Positions 6,623 to 59,820 of a DNA stretch of 64,000 nt are shown piece by piece. The position numbers and the translations under genes are program-made. The number at the start of each line of letters is the position of its first letter. Within the stretch, counting starts at the first letter, position 1. Below the pieces are notes generated by a model that searched no databases, was not told the DNA's origin, and saw only the letters and a list, made by a program, of their open reading frames with translations. The DNA is taken from sequence record NC_100371.1; one strand, 5' to 3'. This DNA is from a phage.

Positions 6623-6910
6623 GTTCGCCGCAGGGTGGTATTCCCTGCGACTTGCCCAGCGTCCTGGACCAGCAAGACCCAACAAGTGGGTTACCAGATA
6701 CCCATTACCGCGCTCTGGCTCGACCTTATTACAGGTTGGCTGGGGTCACATCGTCATGTGCTGGCTGCCCCTACCATTTTAAGTGTGGTGCACTATCAAG
6801 CCCTCTAAGGGGAACTCAGCCTTCTCCGAACCCTGTTTCAAAGCATCCGGAGATAAAGCCATCAAACTCATCTTTAAATTGGATATTCATCATGATACAC
6901 GAAAACAACC

Positions 6911-8510: not shown

Positions 8511-8594
8511 TGTGTCCGTATCACGGACAGTTAGTGTCCGTATTACGGGCAGATGTGTCCGCGTGACGGACAGTAGTGTCCGTATCACGGACAG
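8511..8594. promoter_or_regulatory. array of four tandem palindromic operator-like sites
   Basis: Four ~21-bp units with consensus GTGTCCGTATCACGGACAG (inverted half-sites TGTCCGT / ACGGACA) at 8511-8530, 8532-8552, 8553-8573 and 8574-8594, inside a 660-bp intergenic region. Confidence 0.6.
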
Positions 8595-8668
8595 TTACTA
8601 ACCTCTGTTCCAGAGTGAACATAAAACATACAAATCCTTATAGTACAGATGTTTAAGTTTTTACTGGT

Positions 8669-52031: not shown

Positions 52032-52040
52032 TTGCCCACC

Positions 52041-52145
52041 TTATCCGATACCGTTGGAAGACAAGATCATATTAGCCATGGTTGCAATCAGGCCAATACC
52101 TAGGGCAATAACCAGGATCATCGCATCAATTAATTTCTGTTTCAT
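52041..52145 (-). CDS. small hydrophobic membrane peptide (34 aa)
   Basis: MKQKLIDAMILVIALGIGLIATMANMILSSNGIG; GAGGAAAAC RBS. Confidence 0.35.
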   Translation of the reverse strand: MKQKLIDAMILVIALGIGLIATMANMILSSNGIG

Positions 52146-52237
52146 CTTGTTTTCCTCTTCTTGCTCCAGGTGGCGGACCATTCCACCACCTTATGTATTA
52201 TGCTTTGTTAGATAGTGTTGTTTGTTGTCAAACTATT

Positions 52238-52417
52238 TTAACGATAGTCATCATATGCTTTATTAACCTGGCGAATATAACATTCAAAAGCTAGATCAAT
52301 AGACTTATACTCACGGATATACTCGCCATAGGAAACCACATACATTTCTATAGCTTCCTCATATGCCAGGAGAATAGAATCTAACCCTACAATCTCGGTC
52401 TTTGCAATAATAGCCAT
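52238..52417 (-). CDS. hypothetical protein (59 aa)
   Basis: AAGAGGATAAAAATC RBS; just under the track's 60-aa cut-off. Confidence 0.4.
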   Translation of the reverse strand: MAIIAKTEIVGLDSILLAYEEAIEMYVVSYGEYIREYKSIDLAFECYIRQVNKAYDDYR

Positions 52418-52492
52418 GATTTTTATCCTCTTTGTGGTTGGTGGGGCTTGCCCCTTTGATTTATATACTACAGTCTTATACGGTCATGTCAA

Positions 52493-52726
52493 CTATTTTT
52501 CAAAAAATTTTTCTGCTGTGATATTCTTCCCGGTCGGATTAGCTACTTTTAAAATTCTATCATGCACCGGACGCCCAAAAGAATACGATCCGTATACAGT
52601 AAACCAATAATCCCCGTTCGGTTGAACTGTTACCGCAGCGTACGGTGTCCCTCTTTCATTATCACCAATAAAGTGAGAAACATTGCCGTTAACGTTCGGT
52701 TTAGTGCTTTTAATTTGTTCAATCAT
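52493..52726 (-). CDS. hypothetical protein
   Basis: 77 aa; AAGAGGGG RBS. Confidence 0.45.
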   Translation of the reverse strand: MIEQIKSTKPNVNGNVSHFIGDNERGTPYAAVTVQPNGDYWFTVYGSYSFGRPVHDRILKVANPTGKNITAEKFFEK

Positions 52727-52788
52727 GATGATTTACCCCTCTTTATTTTTTCATAATTTCAGGAGGGGCCTTTTCGGCCCCGCCAGGC

Positions 52789-53073
52789 TTATTTATTGAT
52801 GGCGTGCAACGGGAAAGGTACGCCAGGTTGATAGATAACTTTTACAACCTCATCAGGGCAAAAGAAGTTGCAAAATTCACCGCAATAGGCTTCGTCTTCT
52901 TTTAGCTCTTCATCAACATACTCAAAAAAGTAGTCGATGCTTGGATAATCCTGGCCGGGATTATAGTCGACCATTGTCAGGACTAGCTCAAGATCGTTGC
53001 GTAGGATATGCATACCCGCTTTTAAGTATTTGGCTTCCATTTCTACTACATCGCCAACGGTAACAATAGCCAT
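52789..53073 (-). CDS. hypothetical acidic protein
   Basis: 94 aa; TAGGAG RBS. Confidence 0.45.
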   Translation of the reverse strand: MAIVTVGDVVEMEAKYLKAGMHILRNDLELVLTMVDYNPGQDYPSIDYFFEYVDEELKEDEAYCGEFCNFFCPDEVVKVIYQPGVPFPLHAINK

Positions 53074-53274
53074 AGTTTTAACTCCTATCTATCCGGTTAA
53101 TGATTGGGGGCCGCCCCCTGACACGTCCTATTATCCATATTGTAGGACTTGATGCAAGTACTTCTTTAAAAAAATTTTTAAGCGCCTTGGGGCCGCTGTA
53201 ACGCCAAAATAATAAAGGCCATGCGGTTGCATAGCCTTTAGATGATTATATCGCTGTAGGCCCTGCTGGGGGCC

Positions 53275-53625
53275 TTATTTTGCATTATTTCCTATATTGC
53301 CGCCACGGTACCAGCGTTTACGGTGAAAATGGTAATAATCGCCATCGGCATTGAACATCAGATGGTTTTCAATAACCAGCTTACGAAGGTGGGCCGGATC
53401 TTGTTCCATTCTTGCCAGACTCTGGCGGCTGTTACGTAAGCGGATAAATTCCATATTCAGGCCGTTGATTGCAGCATGGATGTCAAAGTAACCACCTTTG
53501 AGACGTTCACGCATGGCGTTAATCTCAACACAATATACAGATTTCTCACAAATCAAGGTATTAGCCAGGGCGCGGACCTGGGCAAGGGGGTTAAGCTCAT
53601 TAAGGTAATATAGTTTTACTTTCAT
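53275..53625 (-). CDS. hypothetical protein
   Basis: 116 aa; weak RBS. Confidence 0.4.
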   Translation of the reverse strand: MKVKLYYLNELNPLAQVRALANTLICEKSVYCVEINAMRERLKGGYFDIHAAINGLNMEFIRLRNSRQSLARMEQDPAHLRKLVIENHLMFNADGDYYHFHRKRWYRGGNIGNNAK

Positions 53626-53642
53626 AAAATAACCTGCTGAAA

Positions 53643-53942
53643 CTAGTTTGAGAAAACATCGTTCACAATAGCGATCACAATGCCGTTCACCTTGTCACGG
53701 TCAACAATGCACAAATCGCCATAGATCATGTGGTAGTCTGGATGATCTTTCACGGAATAATCAATGAGTGTTTTCTTATCGTCCAGCTTACTAACTTCCA
53801 TTCTCATAACGATATGAGAATCATCGAAGACATTATTCCGAAAAGTCATAACCTGACCGCCAGGGCACCCTGTGATCTCTACTTCCACGCCGTCTACGAT
53901 CTGACCATCAAAGAAATAAAGATTATTAGCCTGGATAAACAT
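53643..53942 (-). CDS. hypothetical protein
   Basis: ATG at 53942 placed 8 nt after an AAAGGAG RBS. Confidence 0.45.
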   Translation of the reverse strand: MFIQANNLYFFDGQIVDGVEVEITGCPGGQVMTFRNNVFDDSHIVMRMEVSKLDDKKTLIDYSVKDHPDYHMIYGDLCIVDRDKVNGIVIAIVNDVFSN

Positions 53943-53986
53943 GATCATTACTCCTTTTTGCACTGATTATTTTAACAGGGTTTAAA

Positions 53987-54031
53987 TTTACTTTATTGAT
54001 GGCCCTGGAGTCAAGGCCATCTAAAAATAAA
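53987..54031. repeat. 45-bp repeat, copy 1 (promoter-like with hairpin)
   Basis: Identical to 57724-57768; the minus strand reads TTGACT-N18-TAAATT with an upstream GATGGCC...GGCCATC hairpin. Confidence 0.55.
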
Positions 54032-54033
54032 TT

Positions 54034-54234
54034 TTACAGGCCTACAATCTCTTTAATTCGTTTTACTGCTGCCTCAGCGCCTTGAGGGTAAAAATTATGG
54101 TAACCAATCACGCGGGTAATACTGATCGCCACTTGATGATCTTCATAATCGCCTTTGAAGATTTCTTGACCGTCAATCAACACGGCAATTTTTTCTTCTT
54201 TTTTGAAGTTAATAACGCGGATATTGTTGCTCAT
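54034..54234 (-). CDS. hypothetical protein
   Basis: 66 aa; AAAGGAGAAAC RBS. Confidence 0.45.
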   Translation of the reverse strand: MSNNIRVINFKKEEKIAVLIDGQEIFKGDYEDHQVAISITRVIGYHNFYPQGAEAAVKRIKEIVGL

Positions 54235-54376
54235 TTTGTTTCTCCTTTTGGAACTTTGTCTATGTGGTGAGGAGTGTCTCCCCGTTGATTGTTATTATCC
54301 ATATTCTGGATCGGATTGCAACACCCAGGGAGAAAAAAATTTAAAAAGTTAGGCCCCCAGGGATCAGGGGCCGTTA

Positions 54377-54496
54377 TCAGTTACTTACAGCGATAAAATA
54401 CATCCCTACGCCTAACAATATTTCAAGGGCGATGATCTCAAGCCATACCATAGCACGGCTTGCCTTATCGGTGCGGGGCTTATCCTTGGGTGTCAT
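54377..54496 (-). CDS. small hydrophobic peptide (39 aa)
   Basis: MTPKDKPRTDKASRAMVWLEIIALEILLGVGMYFIAVSN; AGGGGGAG RBS. Confidence 0.35.
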   Translation of the reverse strand: MTPKDKPRTDKASRAMVWLEIIALEILLGVGMYFIAVSN

Positions 54497-54516
54497 CGTC
54501 TCCCCCTTTCCTCCTG

Positions 54517-54738
54517 TTAGCAGTTACGTGGTTTGCAATGGTCCCCAGGAGTATTATCACCACGCACATTACAAGAAAAATTATCTCTGTCGTTGTTCGA
54601 TCCATTGTTATAAAATTCCTTAAGATCAGGCCTGAAAATAAAGCTTTCGTTATTGAATCCATCCCGCCAGGCGGCTGGCTTCAAATCTTCACTAAATGGA
54701 TTAATTAACGTGGCATTATTTAAACGGCTGGCCCACAT
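54517..54738 (-). CDS. hypothetical protein
   Basis: ATG at 54738 with GAGAGGAA RBS. Confidence 0.4.
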   Translation of the reverse strand: MWASRLNNATLINPFSEDLKPAAWRDGFNNESFIFRPDLKEFYNNGSNNDRDNFSCNVRGDNTPGDHCKPRNC

Positions 54739-55087
54739 ATTTTCTATTCCTCTCAAATAAGCGATCCGCCTCAGTTAAACAAATCTCATGGGCGTGATCT
54801 CTGGTTTTAGCTTCATCGAAAACCTGTTGTGCAAGGCTGCAACGTAGGGAGACTGGAAGATCACTATAATAGGCGTTGACAAACGTTTGAGCGTCGTACA
54901 GGTCTGAAAATACTTTACCCTTTCTATTATTCCCCTTGTCAACAATTGCAAGGATAACCAATACAATAGTTGCAACCACTCCCAGGAAGATAGATATAAT
55001 AAACCATAAAAAGGCGGATCTCCCCATCTTGCCAGCGATCCAGGCGTTAAACAAGGCAACCAATACAGCCAAAATAATAAATTCCAT
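54716..55087 (-). CDS. membrane protein (two predicted TM helices)
   Basis: ATG at 55087 with AAGAGGT RBS; hydrophobic N-terminal half. Confidence 0.45.
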   Translation of the reverse strand: MEFIILAVLVALFNAWIAGKMGRSAFLWFIISIFLGVVATIVLVILAIVDKGNNRKGKVFSDLYDAQTFVNAYYSDLPVSLRCSLAQQVFDEAKTRDHAHEICLTEADRLFERNRKYVGQPFK

Positions 55088-55151
55088 TCTATGTACCTCT
55101 TTTACAGTTCTGATTAACAATAAGGCGGCAAATATGCCGCCTGTTACCTGA

Positions 55152-55532
55152 TTAAAAATTATCGCCGTAAATCTTTCCGCTTTCTACCCATACCACCACG
55201 CGAGGCATACTATCCCACACGTCTTGTTTTAGATTGAGCGCGTGCAATTCTTCGGTGGTGCTCATACCGGGCACGGGCTGATTGTATACTGCAAAACGAC
55301 CGCCTGCATAATCATAGGCCAGGGTTAAATCACACTGGATCATCTTTTTGATCATGGCATTAAGCATGGCGTTAGCCGCGTACTGATCTCGTTTTAATGG
55401 CAACTCTTTAATCAGTTTGCGATAGTTTTCGATATGGTCGCACACTGTTTCACGCGGAAGATCTTTCATATCTTCACGGAATGTAACCAGGTTAAACATA
55501 ACGGTGTCAATAGCTTTAGTAGTGTTTTTCAT
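55152..55532 (-). CDS. hypothetical protein
   Basis: ATG at 55532 with AAGAGGAAAAC RBS. Confidence 0.45.
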   Translation of the reverse strand: MKNTTKAIDTVMFNLVTFREDMKDLPRETVCDHIENYRKLIKELPLKRDQYAANAMLNAMIKKMIQCDLTLAYDYAGGRFAVYNQPVPGMSTTEELHALNLKQDVWDSMPRVVVWVESGKIYGDNF

Positions 55533-55623
55533 GATGTTTTCCTCTTTGTTTTGTGGGAGGCAAGTCATCTCACCCCCTTGAGTTTTAAATATAGCAGGTT
55601 TTTAGATTATTGCAACACTTTAT

Positions 55624-56247
55624 TTATGAAAAACTCATCTCACCATATTCATCCACATCAAACCGCCAATCATTGGCTTCAATAAGGCCGATCAGGTTTT
55701 CGGTAGTAAACTGTTCAAGATAGGACTCCTCCAGGTCTACATAAACCTTGCGGGATAGCTCCCGTACCGTCTCGGTGATCAGCTCTTCCAGGTCTTCCAC
55801 TTTGTTTTCTTGTTTGGCGGTCAGATCTAGCCAGGTGGTATCAATGTATCCGCTTACAGTGTTTTCATGGCTGTAATGGCTGTACTTGTCGCGTTCAATA
55901 CTGGCTGATAACTCGCCATCGTGCATTGTGCCGAACAAGTGACGAATTGATCGGAACTTGGTCAGGGCCTTTACTTTACGCAAGAATTTTTCTAAATCCA
56001 CGTTTTCAGCACTGATTGACGCGCCGTCACCCTGGCACCAAAAGCCGGACCAATGTACTTCGGTATCTTCAAGGCCGTACTCTGGAAAAACTTGTTCTTT
56101 ATAATATTCAATTACACTTTCTGCGAAAAAATCCTCTCCGCTGTGTTCTTCTCTTTCGCGGACCATTTCAATAGCTTTTTCTTTTTGTTCGTCGGTCAGC
56201 ACGTTGAAAGATAAATTGCAACCTGTGGTAATGTTAACGGTGGTCAT
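55624..56247 (-). CDS. hypothetical protein
   Basis: 207 aa; AGGAGAAAA RBS. Confidence 0.5.
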   Translation of the reverse strand: MTTVNITTGCNLSFNVLTDEQKEKAIEMVREREEHSGEDFFAESVIEYYKEQVFPEYGLEDTEVHWSGFWCQGDGASISAENVDLEKFLRKVKALTKFRSIRHLFGTMHDGELSASIERDKYSHYSHENTVSGYIDTTWLDLTAKQENKVEDLEELITETVRELSRKVYVDLEESYLEQFTTENLIGLIEANDWRFDVDEYGEMSFS

Positions 56248-56321
56248 GATATTTTCTCCTATTTTCTTTGTTAGTGGCGGGAAGTTTTCCCGTTTACGTG
56301 TTTAAGTATACTTATCGAGAT

Positions 56322-56582
56322 TTACTTGTCAACACTATTTTTTAAATTATTGTGGCGCAAAATGTTTAAAATCTCTTCAACGTCATCAACACGGCGGCAA
56401 TTTTTAAACGCTACCAATTGCCCCATGATTTTAATCACTGGACGGCCTTGCCAGTGCCCCTGGAGAAAGCGCGCCTTGACTTTATCGGTGGAACTATCAC
56501 GCCACCAAATGGCCTTGTTGTTGCAGTAGTAAAAATTATTCAGGATAACATCAACTTTATCAAAATTTTTTAATTTACGCAT
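56322..56582 (-). CDS. hypothetical protein
   Basis: 86 aa; AAAGGAG RBS. Confidence 0.45.
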   Translation of the reverse strand: MRKLKNFDKVDVILNNFYYCNNKAIWWRDSSTDKVKARFLQGHWQGRPVIKIMGQLVAFKNCRRVDDVEEILNILRHNNLKNSVDK

Positions 56583-56784
56583 GGCGTTTACTCCTTTCTC
56601 TCTTTGATGTGGTTAGTATAGCTAACCTGTTTAAGATGTCAAGCTTTAAATAAAATCACTGCCAATAATATTTTTAACGCCATAAAACGGCCCTGGGCGA
56701 TGTTTTCAGGTTAAAGGGGCGATTGCATAGGTGGGGGCCTTTTTGGCGCTTACAGGGCCAACCAGGGGCGCTATTCGTAGAATA

Positions 56785-56814
56785 GAAATAAAAAGCCCCG
56801 CACAATGGCGGGGC
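56785..56814 (-). terminator. rho-independent terminator
   Basis: Minus strand GCCCCGC-loop-GCGGGGC hairpin followed by TTTTTATTT. Confidence 0.55.
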
Positions 56815-56822
56815 GTTGGTTG

Positions 56823-57020
56823 TTATTTGTCTTTATGGCGGTATCGTTCTGCCTGTCGTTCACGTTCCAAAAGTAGGCCAGGCAATTTACGATCATAATG
56901 ATTTCGCCAGATCTTTCCAAATCTTTTTGGCTTATTCAGTTTATTGTTACGCTGGCGGCGTTCCGGCAACTCTTCGGAATCATGAGATCGCTTTACAATC
57001 TTCTCAAAATTAATCTTCAT
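56823..57020 (-). CDS. small basic protein
   Basis: ATG at 57020 with AGGGGGGAA RBS. Confidence 0.4.
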   Translation of the reverse strand: MKINFEKIVKRSHDSEELPERRQRNNKLNKPKRFGKIWRNHYDRKLPGLLLERERQAERYRHKDK

Positions 57021-57363
57021 ATATTCCCCCCTTGCTAACTTCAATATTGGCCTGAATAGCCCGGATACGGCGCTTTATAACTTCCTGATCTGTGTGATCG
57101 TATCCCCAAAAGTCCACAATTTTTGCGCCCCCCGCCTCCAGGCGGTATAGTGTTTCCTGCATCTTGTAAGCCGGGATCGGTCGCGGTGTTACTTGGTCAC
57201 CTTCTTTATTTTTATACTTTATAATATAATCTTCGTTATCGTTGAATGCCCAAAATGGATATTCTGCAAGGGCGGTGCTTCCTCTTTCCTTTTTATCCTG
57301 GATCTTGTTTACAATTAAAGCCGTAGCAATAGCGCCAATAATAAAACTAGCCCCGCTGATCAT
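57010..57363 (-). CDS. membrane-anchored protein
   Basis: N-terminal TM segment; AAAGGAGAAAG RBS. Confidence 0.45.
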   Translation of the reverse strand: MISGASFIIGAIATALIVNKIQDKKERGSTALAEYPFWAFNDNEDYIIKYKNKEGDQVTPRPIPAYKMQETLYRLEAGGAKIVDFWGYDHTDQEVIKRRIRAIQANIEVSKGGIYED

Positions 57364-57437
57364 ATACTTTCTCCTTTCATGGTGTTAATAAATTATCTTT
57401 ATAGATGGCCCTGCAGCCAGGACCACCGAAAAAATAA

Positions 57438-57683
57438 CTATTTCACAATGCCCACAAAACAGATCCCGCCTTCCCCGACGTAGGCAATATCGGTCACTTT
57501 GTAGTCGGTTAAGATCTGTTTATTCAGATCATTAATAAAATCGGTCATTGCGTTGGTGTAGTTGTCTTCCATATCTAAGGCATAATCCCAGGTGTAGACC
57601 TTTTTACGTCCGAAGCCTTTTACCATGATACGGGCGCTTTTGGTGTTGGTAGGCGCATAATATTTGGTGATTAGTGCTGCCAT
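57438..57683 (-). CDS. hypothetical protein
   Basis: 81 aa; GAGGAG RBS. Confidence 0.45.
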   Translation of the reverse strand: MAALITKYYAPTNTKSARIMVKGFGRKKVYTWDYALDMEDNYTNAMTDFINDLNKQILTDYKVTDIAYVGEGGICFVGIVK

Positions 57684-57723
57684 GGTTTTAACTCCTCATT
57701 AGTTCAGTGTTAACAGTGTAAAG

Positions 57724-57768
57724 TTTACTTTATTGATGGCCCTGGAGTCAAGGCCATCTAAAAATAAA
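57724..57768. repeat. 45-bp repeat, copy 2 (promoter-like with hairpin)
   Basis: Identical to 53987-54031. Confidence 0.55.
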
Positions 57769-57769
57769 C

Positions 57770-58174
57770 TTAGTAAGTTTTCAGTACTTTACCGTCCAAC
57801 CTGTCAAGCTGGATCTCGATAGCTGCAGAAAACCTATTGTACACCACGTCGCCCATGGAATCCAACCAGTCTATGACGTTATACACCTGCTCTTTGTTCT
57901 TGCAGGTCCGGATCCGTTTCATGATGTAAGCCGGATCAATATTGGTACTTTCGTTGGTGTTCCCCTGTACCTGATTTGCCGTATTAGTTACATCTTTAAT
58001 GGCCTTTACCACCACCTGGAAGGGCTTTAAGGTGCCTTTTGCGTTCATCTCACGCGCTTTTGCGGCGCGGTTGTTATATGTTACACAACGGCGGCAAATG
58101 TTGATCAAATGCATGTCAATAATTTTTTCATCGTTTGCCAGTTCATTCATGATGCGGCGTACGTTCTTATTCAT
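57770..58174 (-). CDS. hypothetical protein
   Basis: 134 aa; AAGGAAAAAG RBS. Confidence 0.45.
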   Translation of the reverse strand: MNKNVRRIMNELANDEKIIDMHLINICRRCVTYNNRAAKAREMNAKGTLKPFQVVVKAIKDVTNTANQVQGNTNESTNIDPAYIMKRIRTCKNKEQVYNVIDWLDSMGDVVYNRFSAAIEIQLDRLDGKVLKTY

Positions 58175-58256
58175 GATCTTTTTCCTTTGTGTTGGCGGGA
58201 AACATTCCCGCCTTTTGTGATTAGTTTACTTGAATTTTGCAGCGTGTCAACAATTT

Positions 58257-58655
58257 TTATTCGTGGGCGCATGTTACAATGTGCTTTTTATAGCCCAGGT
58301 GGTTAGCAAGTGCCGACAAAAACTCTTCTTCATAGATCCAGCCGTTGGCAGTGATCCCCATAGCATTTAATGCGCTCTCAAGTGCTGCATTAGCTTTATC
58401 GTAACCGTGACCGCTCGCCTTCCCGCCAGTATAACCGTACTTATTGTTCTTGTTGTCGTGAATCCAAAAAACACAGTATTGAGTGTTCCCGCTGGCGGCG
58501 GCATAATACCGGATCTCAGCTACTTCGTGCAAATTATTGTCATCGTCCAGGCCCACCAGATTATAAGCCTTGTAAAATCCACGATCACGGCGGCAGTTCT
58601 TGACATCAGAAAAAGAAAAGTCCGCATTATCAAAATTAAAGGTAGTGGTTTTCAT
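58257..58655 (-). CDS. hypothetical protein
   Basis: 132 aa; AAGAGGATAAAATC RBS. Confidence 0.5.
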   Translation of the reverse strand: MKTTTFNFDNADFSFSDVKNCRRDRGFYKAYNLVGLDDDNNLHEVAEIRYYAAASGNTQYCVFWIHDNKNNKYGYTGGKASGHGYDKANAALESALNAMGITANGWIYEEEFLSALANHLGYKKHIVTCAHE

Positions 58656-58719
58656 GATTTTATCCTCTTAGTGTCTTTTGTGCTTTTAGTGTATTTGGTG
58701 TCAGACTGTATGTCAATAC

Positions 58720-58917
58720 TTATTTTTTATTAAACCAGTGGTTGATCTGGCCTTTTGTCAGGGCGCAACGATTAAGCTGTTGCCGGGTGTAGCTCTGACC
58801 GCGACGGAATTTATAAAGGCCTTGCCCGTTGTTGATGGTTACGTCCACCTGGCAAATCATTTGATCGGTGACGGCCTGGCGAGTGTTGCGACGTACTTTA
58901 ATTCCGTAGGCGTTCAT
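58720..58917 (-). CDS. hypothetical basic protein
   Basis: 65 aa; GAGAGGATAAAATC RBS, near-identical to the upstream gene's RBS context. Confidence 0.45.
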   Translation of the reverse strand: MNAYGIKVRRNTRQAVTDQMICQVDVTINNGQGLYKFRRGQSYTRQQLNRCALTKGQINHWFNKK

Positions 58918-59000
58918 GATTTTTATCCTCTCTGTTAATTAGTGTGGTGTTGTTCACCTTGCGAGGATAAGAATAACAGAACTATCCGAGCTGTCAACCA

Positions 59001-59540: not shown

Positions 59541-59726
59541 CCTTTTCGCATTTCATAAATTTAGTTAGCATGCTAATTACCTACCGTGACAATTCTATAT
59601 AAAATAATACCTCCTTAAGTATTTCCATATACAAATTTTAAAAATCCATTTCCGAAAACGAAAAATCGATTTCGTCCCCAAAAATTTCAGGTCGAGCTCC
59701 GGAACGATTTCCAGAAAATCTGATTC

Positions 59727-59820
59727 AGAAAACGAAAAACAGATCGAGTACTAAGAAATTTATCGAGAAAAATTTTCAGAAAATTCAATCTTTGGAACGA
59801 AAAACAGATCGAGTACTGAG
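59727..59820. repeat. direct repeats AACGAAAAACAGATCGAGTACT(A/G)AG
   Basis: Copies at 59727-59754 and 59794-59820, with a partial copy at 59652-59677; TCCATTTT motifs recur at 59641-60090. Confidence 0.5.

What the first reader, a model, noticed from the sequence alone, without database searches (positions are those of the whole stretch)
53987..57768. Two identical 45-bp promoter-hairpin repeats 3.7 kb apart
TTTACTTTATTGATGGCCCTGGAGTCAAGGCCATCTAAAAATAAA occurs at 53987-54031 and 57724-57768. On the minus strand each reads as a hairpin followed by TTGACT-N18-TAAA(T/C)T upstream of a small gene. Perfect identity suggests recent duplication or gene conversion, or a co-regulated promoter family with an operator; such repeats could also mediate deletions.
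Basis: seen in the sequence. Interest (0 to 1): 0.5.

Follow-up and report, generated by a model that had tools for sequence, protein, structure and literature searches.

The report
Phage hairpin-promoter repeats that shuffle genes
The two identical 45-bp repeats belong to a small family of palindromic intergenic elements in rV5-like coliphages that sit between small early genes, probably act as an RNA hairpin with an embedded promoter, and demonstrably serve as crossover points where gene cassettes are lost or swapped; this is the same kind of element as the PeSL cassettes of T4-like phages.

Summary
The 45-nt sequence occurs exactly twice (53987-54031, 57724-57768), with none expected by chance. 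A third, degenerate copy lies at 57393-57437.

The window is a Vequintavirus (rV5-like E. coli myovirus). All copies lie on the coding (minus) strand, 0-2 nt after a stop codon and 30-45 nt before the next start codon, among small genes of unknown function.

Each copy is a 51-nt imperfect palindrome. It folds as a 10-bp GC stem on an 11-bp AU stem, with TTGACT in the apical loop and TAAAYT 18 nt downstream. It has no U-tract, so it is not a canonical terminator.

- **Recombination is shown.** Most relatives carry three good copies (A, B, C) plus the degenerate copy D. The window's second copy is a C/B hybrid left by loss of a 621-bp two-gene cassette. Phage 241Ecol014PP has a B/D hybrid that lost the 81-aa gene.
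- **Transfer between subfamilies.** One Justusliebigvirus acquired a cassette whose homology ends at the repeat.
- **Gene conversion.** Loop variants are shared between paralogous copies within a genome.
- **The predicted deletion was not found.** No record among 120 lacks 54032-57723.

Promoter activity is plausible but untested. The closest known kind is the PeSL of T4-like phages. I found no description of such elements in rV5-like phages.

The parts
53984..54034 (-). Copy A of the 51-nt palindromic element. It lies between the stop codon of the 66-aa gene (54034..54234) and the 5' UTR of the ~99-aa gene (53643..53942).
   Evidence: Exact 45-nt core. 51-nt family D1. Minus-strand RNA fold -25.2 kcal/mol, z = -4.4. 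Covariance model score 84.4 bits.
57721..57771 (-). Second copy, a C/B hybrid. Its upstream flank (sense orientation) matches copy C of relatives (after the 134-aa gene). Its downstream flank matches copy B (before the 81-aa gene). It marks the site where a 621-bp cassette (39-aa and 113-aa genes) is missing.
   Evidence: Flank alignment with EdH4 copies B and C. Copy table. 634-column gap at window 57721 in window, ECP32 and phiWec189. Fold -25.6 kcal/mol, z = -6.0. 87.3 bits.
57390..57440 (-). Copy D, degenerate (75% identical). Both stems are kept through compensatory and wobble changes. The loop lacks TTGAC. It lies between the 81-aa gene and the 117-aa gene.
   Evidence: fold -24.6 kcal/mol, z = -4.4; 70.6 bits.
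53998..54021 (-). Upper GC-rich stem-loop of copy A (sense GATGGCCTTG-ACTC-CAGGGCCATC: 10 bp with a 4-nt loop).
   Evidence: The upper helix is paired in 100% of 29 distinct copies.
57735..57758 (-). Upper GC-rich stem-loop of the second copy.
54009..54014 (-). -35-like TTGACT of copy A, lying in the 5' arm and apical loop.
   Evidence: TTGACT-18-TAAATT, 9 of 12. TTGA is invariant in A/B/C copies of all phages examined, and TTGAC in all but one divergent copy.
53985..53990 (-). -10-like TAAATT of copy A, in the 3' AT-rich arm.
   Evidence: Homologous to the -10 region of the EC.P2 promoter TTGCAA-N16-TAAACT.
57746..57751 (-). -35-like TTGACT of the second copy.
57722..57727 (-). -10-like TAAACT of the second copy.
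57438..57683 (-). 81-aa gene of unknown function, bounded by the second copy (upstream) and copy D (downstream). This cassette is deleted in 241Ecol014PP.
   Evidence: ORF list. PHROG family of unknown function. Present in 117 records. 338-column gap in 241Ecol014PP.
57770..58174 (-). 134-aa gene of unknown function whose stop codon abuts the second copy.
54034..54234 (-). 66-aa gene of unknown function whose stop codon abuts copy A.
57010..57363 (-). 117-aa gene of unknown function downstream of copy D.

Best explanation
The repeats are members of a four-position family (A, B, C and a degenerate D) of PeSL-type composite intergenic elements in the early, small-gene region of rV5-like phages (Vequintavirus).

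Anatomy (shown). Each element starts at the stop codon of one small gene and ends 30-45 nt before the next start codon. It is a 51-nt imperfect palindrome. In the sense (minus-strand) transcript it forms a 21-bp interrupted hairpin: a 10-bp GC-rich upper stem, a 2/3-nt internal loop and an 11-bp AU lower stem.

Function (inferred). It carries a sigma-70-like promoter, with an AT-rich upstream arm, TTGACW in the apical loop and TAAAYT 18 nt downstream in the 3' arm. The likely working is twofold. The hairpin acts on transcripts arriving from the upstream gene, either attenuating them or protecting or processing their 3' ends. The embedded promoter re-initiates transcription for the downstream gene.

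Recombination (shown by comparison). Because the copies are long, near-identical direct repeats, the phage's homologous recombination uses them as crossover points. This homogenises the copies by gene conversion and deletes, inserts or exchanges the gene cassettes between them. The window's second copy is itself such a product: a C/B hybrid left by loss of a 621-bp two-gene cassette.
For: Identity and context: the window is a Vequintavirus (97.8% identical to vB_EcoM-ECP32). The element occurs in 120 phage records, typically at 3 places, all within about 4.4 kb. The flanking genes are of unknown function.

Structure:
- Fold z-scores are -4.4 to -6.0.
- On 29 distinct copies 96.6% of cells are paired, against 35-56% when partners are slid.
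- The upper helix is 100% paired, and its four one-sided changes all pass through G-U pairs valid only on the sense strand.
- Three lower-stem pairs changed on both sides.

Not a terminator: there is no U-tract on either strand. It is absent from the terminator scan, which does find canonical terminators at 56814-56795, 55142-55123, 54372-54352 and 53240-53213 that bound the operons. It is absent from the terminator annotations of EdH4 and Alma and from rV5's 33 promoters and 20 terminators.

Promoter:
- TTGACT-18-TAAAYT.
- TTGA is invariant in all A/B/C copies and TTGAC in all but one divergent copy (TTGATA), while loop positions 3-4 and the closing pair vary.
- The 3' arm AATAAAGTAAAYT is homologous to the -10 region of the native EC.P2 promoter TTGCAA-N16-TAAACT, which serves the same downstream gene.
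- The B/D hybrid creates TTGACA-17-GATAAT.

Recombination:
- C/B hybrid in the window, ECP32, phiWec189 and an IMG/VR contig, with three different junction haplotypes.
- B/D hybrid in 241Ecol014PP.
- In 11 phages over window 53800-58600, the only indels of 25 bp or more are these two.
- KKE7M, from a different subfamily, carries a 436-bp replacement. Its two crossover zones are the element's 3' arm and a conserved promoter core.

Conversion: B and C share ACC in EdH4 and V18, TTC in contig UADI01, and TCC in FV3. A and B share TTC in rV5.

The architecture matches the published definition of PeSLs (PMC2839356).
Against: - No transcript data exist for any Vequintavirus that I could find, so neither promoter nor RNA-level activity is shown.
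- The promoter match is weak: 9 of 12, an 18-nt spacer and a -10 of TAAAYT. Matches of that quality are common by chance here.
- Copy D keeps the hairpin but has no -35, so at least the hairpin has a role independent of the promoter.
- The covariation rests on few independent events, mainly D against A/B/C and A against B/C. Only four informative one-sided changes support the strand assignment (roughly p = 0.06).
- The family has only 3-4 near-identical copies per genome, unlike the dozens of degenerate PeSLs in RB49 and phi1.
- Sequence divergence between alleles of the neighbouring 134-aa gene does not change sharply at the repeat. Not every mosaic boundary in the region lies at these elements; for example the 701-bp indel at 52035-52735 is bounded by RBS/start-codon microhomology.
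Confidence: 0.7

Rival explanations
1. A purely RNA-level intercistronic element with no promoter activity. The 21-bp interrupted hairpin would be an RNase III processing site, or a 3'-end stabiliser, inside polycistronic early mRNAs, as at the T7 early RNase III sites. The TTGACT/TAAAYT match would be coincidental and the recombination a by-product of repeat identity.
For: - Two coaxial stems of 10 and 11 bp are separated by a small asymmetric internal loop.
- Pairing is preserved in copy D although the -35 is lost.
- The G-U pairs are valid only on the sense strand.
- The elements lie inside operons bounded by canonical promoters and U-tract terminators.
- The promoter match is no better than chance level.
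- The resemblance to T7 RNase III sites comes from general knowledge and was not tested.
Against: - TTGA is invariant (TTGAC in all but one copy) in all A/B/C loops while neighbouring loop bases vary.
- The 3' arm is homologous to a promoter -10 region in EC.P2.
- No Rfam family matches.
- RNase III cleavage cannot be predicted reliably from sequence.
Confidence: 0.2
2. A DNA operator. The palindrome GATGGCC-N10-GGCCATC would bind a dimeric phage or host regulator that co-regulates the downstream genes by occluding the -35 in its centre.
For: Perfect dyad symmetry of the 7-bp half-sites in A/B/C copies, with the -35 at the centre. A 2026 preprint notes that terminator palindromes can double as transcription-factor sites.
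Against: - Copy D has two changes in one half-site yet keeps RNA pairing through G-U.
- The AU-rich lower stem also co-varies, which a 7-bp half-site operator does not explain.
- The U-G pairs in the upper and lower stems are mismatches at the DNA level.
- No candidate regulator was identified; the neighbouring genes have no known domains.
Confidence: 0.07
3. An intrinsic (Rho-independent) terminator ending the upstream gene's transcript.
For: A stable GC-rich hairpin lies directly after a stop codon. PeSL stem-loops were reported to terminate as well as rrnB T1 in a reporter.
Against: - No U-tract follows the stem on either strand. The arrangement is U-rich before and A-rich after, the reverse of a terminator.
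- It is not called by the scan here nor by the annotators of EdH4, Alma or rV5, all of whom do call nearby canonical terminators.
Confidence: 0.05

Closest known systems
PeSLs (promoter-early stem-loops) of T4-like phages RB49, phi1, PST and nt-1 (Arbiol et al. 2010, PMC2839356; Comeau et al. 2014, PMC4122927)
   Same: - An intergenic composite running from the upstream stop codon, through an AT-rich stretch, a sigma-70-like -35 and -10 and a stem-loop that may overlap the -35, to the Shine-Dalgarno sequence and ATG of the next gene.
- Located in a variable region of small genes of unknown function.
- G-U pairs occur in the stem.
- Indels between close relatives are bounded by the motifs and leave a single hybrid motif.
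- Crossovers fall at different points within the motif, including the AT-rich part and the promoter.
   Different: - The host phage belongs to an unrelated lineage (Vequintavirinae), and there is no sequence similarity to PeSLs.
- There are only 3-4 copies per genome, 96-100% identical to one another, rather than dozens of degenerate ones.
- The stem is a 21-bp interrupted palindrome with AU-rich arms, not a polyG/polyC stem.
- The promoter match is weak rather than consensus.
- Promoter and terminator activity and mini-circles are untested here.
Promoter-coupled terminators of bacteria (Fletcher et al. 2026 preprint, doi 10.64898/2026.08.19.745784)
   Same: The DNA that encodes a stem-loop also supplies the -35 hexamer of a promoter for the next transcription unit, with the -10 just downstream.
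   Different: Those elements have a terminator T-tract in the spacer. Here the spacer is CCAGGGCCATCAATAAAG with no T-tract, so termination is doubtful.
RNase III processing hairpins between early genes of phage T7 (general knowledge, not tested here)
   Same: An intercistronic position in early polycistronic mRNA. The hairpin has two roughly 10-bp stems separated by an internal loop.
   Different: No cleavage evidence. No sequence or Rfam match. T7 sites are not known as repeated recombination junctions and do not carry promoters.
Conserved linker or boundary sequences of modular phage evolution, and morons (as discussed in PMC2839356)
   Same: Short conserved intergenic sequences serve as crossover points for exchange of gene modules between phages, including the exchange between subfamilies seen in KKE7M.
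   Different: Here the linker is a defined structured palindrome that is repeated within one genome, so it also causes intragenomic deletion and conversion.

Membership tests
PeSL (promoter-early stem-loop) cassettes | Intergenic, spanning from the stop codon of the upstream gene to the Shine-Dalgarno sequence and start codon of the downstream gene | tested here: met
   All copies start 0-2 nt after a stop codon and end 30-45 nt before an SD plus ATG.
PeSL (promoter-early stem-loop) cassettes | [quoted passage not shown] | tested here: inconclusive
   TTTATTTTTA, then TTGACT/A, N18, TAAAYT, scoring 9-10 of 12. This is weaker than the consensus-identical PeSL promoters. Copy D lacks a -35. Conservation of TTGA(C) and homology to an EC.P2 promoter -10 region are supportive.
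PeSL (promoter-early stem-loop) cassettes | A stable stem-loop within or next to the promoter (it may overlap the -35) | tested here: met
   Folds of -25 kcal/mol with z = -4.4 to -6.0. 96.6% of cells paired, with compensatory changes. The -35 lies in the loop.
PeSL (promoter-early stem-loop) cassettes | Located in a hyperplastic region rich in genes of unknown function | tested here: met
   All flanking genes fall in PHROG families of unknown function with no Pfam match. Similarity rankings are mosaic from gene to gene. Further indels lie nearby.
PeSL (promoter-early stem-loop) cassettes | Insertions and deletions between close relatives are bounded by the motifs and leave one hybrid motif | tested here: met
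   C/B hybrid (621-bp cassette) and B/D hybrid (81-aa gene). The KKE7M replacement has a crossover in the element.
PeSL (promoter-early stem-loop) cassettes | Promoter and terminator or attenuator activity in reporter assays | not testable with these tools
   Needs lacZ or GFP fusions, as in PMC2839356.
PeSL (promoter-early stem-loop) cassettes | Formation of excised cassette mini-circles during infection | not testable with these tools
   Needs inverse PCR on infected cells or virions.
PeSL (promoter-early stem-loop) cassettes | Many copies with a degenerate consensus spread through the variable regions of a T4-like genome | tested here: not met
   Only 3-4 copies, all within about 4.4 kb, in a non-T4-like phage. 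This is a feature of how PeSLs were described rather than of how they work.
Intrinsic (Rho-independent) terminator | A GC-rich hairpin immediately followed by a U-tract | tested here: not met
   The hairpin is present, but it is followed by AAUAAAGUAAA on the sense strand and UAAAAAUAAA on the antisense strand. It is not reported by the terminator scan.
Promoter-coupled terminator (Fletcher et al. 2026 preprint) | The stem-loop DNA doubles as the -35, a T-tract lies in the spacer, and the -10 lies directly after the T-tract | tested here: not met
   The -35 lies in the stem-loop, which fits. There is no T-tract, which does not fit.
RNase III processing site (T7 early type) | About 20 bp of interrupted double-stranded RNA with an internal loop, in an intercistronic position, cleaved by host RNase III | tested here: inconclusive
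   The geometry and position fit. Cleavage cannot be tested, and no Rfam family matches.

The most novel reading that the evidence does not exclude
The palindrome may be more than a passive stretch of homology. It may be an active, structure-specific recombination hotspot. Its AT-rich arms would favour cruciform extrusion, and the extruded junction would be cut by the phage's endonuclease VII-type resolvase or recognised by a dedicated protein. The small-gene cassettes it bounds would then be excised as mini-circles and re-inserted at any copy, including copies in other phage subfamilies. That would be an integrase-free, integron-like cassette system in virulent phages.
Probability: 0.12. Interest if true: 0.75.

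Novelty: new member of a known kind. Interest (0 to 1): 0.45.

Why it matters
PeSL-mediated modular shuffling has so far been documented only in T4-like phages. All seven papers in the library that mention PeSLs concern T4-like phages or only cite the concept in passing.

Elements with the same architecture and the same behaviour in rV5-like phages suggest a general way in which virulent phages gain, lose and trade small early genes. Many such genes are thought to be host-takeover or anti-defence functions. One case here crosses into a different subfamily.

The Vequintavirus case is unusually tractable. It has only four positions, near-identical copies, discrete one- or two-gene cassettes and natural hybrid junctions in sequenced isolates. 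Promoter activity, RNA structure and recombination could therefore be separated by simple mutations.

There is also a practical point. These repeats predict which genes are unstable in therapeutic or typing phages of this genus.

Tried and rejected
- **Canonical terminator:** rejected. There is no U-tract on either strand, and neither the scan nor public annotations call it.
- **Known RNA family:** none in Rfam at E<=1 over 53000-59000.
- **More family members:**
  - The covariance model R1 with filters off finds only the three sites in the window.
  - Of the 18 IMG/VR stretches matching a 17-nt pattern, 15 were chance matches and not members.
  - The single bacterial-genome match, in a Methylibium MAG, is a GC-rich chance match without the AT arms.
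a synthetic junction query found no record covering it (0 of 120).
- **Sharp change of allele divergence at the repeat:** not supported. Divergence from EdH4 in the 134-aa gene is concentrated at 57925-58010, so I do not claim that every mosaic boundary lies at the element.
- **Published transcript maps for Vequintavirus:** none found. The rV5 paper's promoter and terminator lists do not include the element.
- **The 'repeat_region' annotated in phage isim:** it is a tandem repeat inside the 113-aa gene and is unrelated.
- **The C/B junction in 'Campylobacter phage A147':** it sits at the very start of an UNVERIFIED linear record whose end carries B, the cassette and C. I treat it as an assembly-end artefact or a mixed population and do not count it.
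- **Fuzzy regex scan:** the first attempt timed out and was replaced by a Hamming scan.

Full report
**1. The observation**

The 45-nt string occurs at 53987-54031 and 57724-57768 with no mismatch, and no match appeared in 100 dinucleotide-preserving shuffles. Similarity extends to 51 nt. A third copy, 75% identical, lies at 57390-57440. A covariance model of the family scores the three sites at 87, 84 and 71 bits on the minus strand, and nothing else in the window reaches E<1.

One detail needs correcting. The TTGACT is not 'after' the hairpin. It lies in the hairpin's 5' arm and apical loop.

**2. Context**

- The window is part of a Vequintavirus (rV5-like E. coli myovirus, about 136 kb). 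The best match is vB_EcoM-ECP32 at 97.8%.
- Around the repeats all genes are small and on the minus strand.
- They belong to PHROG families of unknown function and have no Pfam match. The exception is a 65-aa T7 gp1.1-like protein.
- In the rV5 paper this block belongs to the transcription unit of genes 10-1-238-164, and promoters are described as sigma-70-like.
- None of rV5's 33 predicted promoters or 20 terminators, and none of the terminators annotated in EdH4 or Alma, coincides with the element.

**3. Anatomy**

In sense (minus-strand) orientation every copy reads:

- the stop codon of the upstream gene, 0-2 nt before the element;
- TTTATTTTTA;
- GATGGCCTTG-ACTC-CAGGGCCATC;
- AATAAAGTAAA(Y)T;
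- 30-45 nt of unique 5' UTR with a Shine-Dalgarno sequence, then ATG.

The whole 51 nt is an imperfect palindrome. As RNA the sense strand folds into a 10-bp upper stem with a 4-nt loop, a 2/3-nt internal loop and an 11-bp AU lower stem. Free energies are -24.6 to -25.6 kcal/mol, with z-scores of -4.4 to -6.0. The antisense strand folds less well because two U-G pairs become A-C mismatches.

No U-tract follows the stem on either strand. The arrangement, U-rich before and A-rich after, is the reverse of a terminator. Canonical U-tract terminators do exist nearby, at 56814-56795, 55142-55123, 54372-54352 and 53240-53213. Together with consensus-like promoters such as TTGACA-16-TATACT at 56642 and 56332, they appear to bound the operons. 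The repeats therefore sit inside operons (the operon reading is inference).

The promoter-like match is TTGACT-18-TAAACT/TAAATT, 9 of 12. In this region such matches are frequent by chance: 57 promoter-like matches of at least 9/12 were found against 31.7 expected.

**4. Family and distribution**

- BLAST finds the element in 120 phage records. All are Vequintavirus except one Justusliebigvirus. Most records have 3 places.
- No member turned up in bacterial genomes. The single hit is a GC-rich chance match.
- Metagenome hits are Vequintavirus contigs.
- There are four positional classes, defined by their unrelated flanking genes:
  - A: 66-aa gene to ~99-aa gene;
  - B: 113-aa gene to 81-aa gene;
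  - C: 134-aa gene to 39-aa gene;
  - D, degenerate: 81-aa gene to 117-aa gene.

**5. Structure conservation**

On 29 distinct copies, 96.6% of pair cells form standard pairs, against 35-56% when partners are slid by 1-3 columns.

- The upper helix is paired in every copy. Its four variable pairs change on one side only, always through G-U pairs valid on the sense strand.
- Three lower-stem pairs changed on both sides: GC/AU/GU at columns 10-56, UA/AU at 13-53 and AU/UA at 14-52.
- Copy D keeps both stems but its loop (GCUG, GUUG or GUAA) has no TTGAC.
- A divergent copy C in a 137-kb metagenome contig has a 5-nt loop reading TTGATA and a re-paired lower stem.

The independent events are few, so this is moderate evidence. 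It does favour a selected hairpin, most simply in the sense transcript, that can persist without the -35.

**6. Evidence bearing on the promoter**

- Across all A/B/C copies TTGA is invariant. TTGAC is invariant except in that one divergent copy C (TTGATA). The sixth hexamer base (T/A/C/G), the next loop base and the closing pair vary.
- In the Justusliebigvirus EC.P2, which lacks the element, the orthologous downstream gene is preceded by TTGCAA-N16-TAAACT. Its -10 region, AATAAAGTAAACTATATTC, is homologous to the 3' arm of the element. In KKE7M the element has replaced the -35 half of that promoter.
- The B/D hybrid in 241Ecol014PP reads TTGACA-17-GATAAT.

These points make promoter function plausible, at about even odds. 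No transcript data were found.

**7. Recombination, the best-supported part**

(a) *The window's second copy is a hybrid.* EdH4, Alma, rV5, FV3, Mangalyan, V18 and isim carry copies B and C 621 bp apart, enclosing a 39-aa and a 113-aa gene. The window's second copy has the flank of C on one side and the flank of B on the other.

- The 575-bp cassette is present in 113-115 records.
- The full C/B hybrid junction is found in ECP32, phiWec189, ime and magaca and in an IMG/VR contig.
- Three junction haplotypes exist. Their downstream flanks are ctttacactg, ctttgtactg and ctttatactg, each matching the B haplotype of a different cassette-bearing phage (FV3, A12a, EdH4). The IMG/VR contig carries the other allele class of the 134-aa gene. 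This suggests more than one loss event.

(b) *A second hybrid.* 241Ecol014PP has a B/D hybrid with the crossover in AATAAAG|ATAA, and it lacks the 81-aa gene. That segment is present in 117 records.

(c) *No other large indels.* In a multiple alignment of 11 phages over window 53800-58600, the only indels of 25 bp or more are these two.

(d) *Transfer between subfamilies.* KKE7M (Stephanstirmvirinae) carries one copy at the end of a 475-bp patch that is 93% identical to the Vequintavirus 113-aa-gene cassette.

- Compared with its relative EC.P2, 436 bp replace 296 bp.
- One crossover zone lies in the element's 3' arm.
- The other lies in the conserved promoter core ATTGACAAGMTAACTWAAATC, which is of the rV5 P192 type.

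(e) *Gene conversion.* Paralogous copies share loop variants within a genome, and the shared variant differs between genomes.

- B and C both read ACC in EdH4, Alma and V18, TTC in contig UADI01, and TCC in FV3.
- A and B both read TTC in rV5, and both read ACC in the 137-kb contig.

This explains the perfect identity in the window.

**8. Limits**

- Allele divergence in the 134-aa gene does not switch sharply at the repeat.
- Other indels in the region use other microhomologies, for example 52035-52735 at RBS/start sequences.
- The A147 junction is ambiguous.

**9. Comparison with what is known**

PeSLs of T4-like phages are defined as follows. They are intergenic composites running from the upstream stop codon, through an AT-rich stretch and a sigma-70 promoter, to the SD and ATG. 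Their stem-loop can overlap the -35. They are concentrated among genes of unknown function in hyperplastic regions, and they mediate indels that leave a hybrid motif.

The present element meets the positional, structural and recombinational criteria. It differs in several ways:

- it lies in an unrelated phage lineage and has no sequence similarity to PeSLs;
- it has 3-4 near-identical copies instead of dozens;
- its stem is a long AU/GC interrupted palindrome instead of a polyG/polyC stem;
- its promoter is weak rather than consensus.

Promoter and terminator activity and mini-circles could not be tested. It also resembles the 'promoter-coupled terminators' in which stem-loop DNA supplies the -35, but it lacks their T-tract. 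The only papers in the library that mention PeSLs concern T4-like phages or cite the concept in passing.

**10. Verdict**

This is a real, non-random feature. The recombination part is demonstrated by comparison. The promoter and RNA roles are inferred. The specific predicted deletion is absent.

It is a new member of a known kind (PeSL-type regulatory cassette boundaries) in a phage group where it had not been described. Interest is moderate.

Noticed in passing
window 8512-8597: Four tandem 21-22-nt units (GTGTCCGTATCACGGACAGTTA and variants), each a small palindrome. They lie where gene orientation and GC skew switch from the minus to the plus strand. They could be iterons or an operator array.
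   Followed up: no
window 52035-52735: A 701-bp segment with three small ORFs is absent from the closest relative, ECP32. The indel is bounded by RBS/start-codon microhomology ATCATTT(G/A)CCC rather than by the hairpin repeat.
   Followed up: partly
L024 9448-9468; L001 ~6655-6675; L031 ~1807-1830: A promoter core ATTGACAAGMTAACTWAAATC (-35 plus spacer, of the rV5 P192 type) is shared by Vequintavirus and Justusliebigvirus. It is the second crossover zone of the KKE7M cassette replacement.
   Followed up: partly
window 53969-53977 (minus strand), and the 5' UTRs at ~57700-57712 and ~57372-57384: Downstream of copy A lies TGTTAAAAT, which looks like an extended -10. Downstream of the second copy and of copy D lies a shared (G)TTAACAC motif about 20-25 nt before the start codons. 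Its function is unknown.
   Followed up: no
window 56823-57020 (minus strand): A 65-aa protein matches Pfam Phage_1_1 (T7 gp1.1), E = 2e-11. This is a T7-type early gene in an rV5-like phage.
   Followed up: no
window 59641-59761 and 59648-59685: A 47-nt direct repeat (72% identical, 74 nt apart) and a long AT-rich hairpin lie in a stretch without convincing ORFs.
   Followed up: no
L041 1-146 and L042 5588-6297 (MG065644.1, 'Campylobacter phage A147'): The start of this UNVERIFIED record carries a C/B hybrid junction, while its end carries B, the cassette and C. This is either an assembly-end artefact or a mixed population of deleted and undeleted genomes. The 17 'Campylobacter phage' records are Vequintavirus by sequence and taxonomy.
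   Followed up: partly
window 53643-58700 compared with L001, L021, L027 and others: Gene-sized segments have discordant similarity rankings. The 117-aa gene is 97.7% identical to EdH4 but 83.3% to rV5, while the 134-aa gene is 87.8% identical to EdH4 but 97.0% to rV5. Alleles therefore reassort freely within this 5-kb block.
   Followed up: partly
L021 (rV5 ORFs 167, 205, 206, 209, 210): Several small early genes of rV5 are annotated as similar to hypothetical proteins of phage RB49, the T4-like phage in which PeSLs were discovered. This hints at gene flow between the two groups.
   Followed up: no
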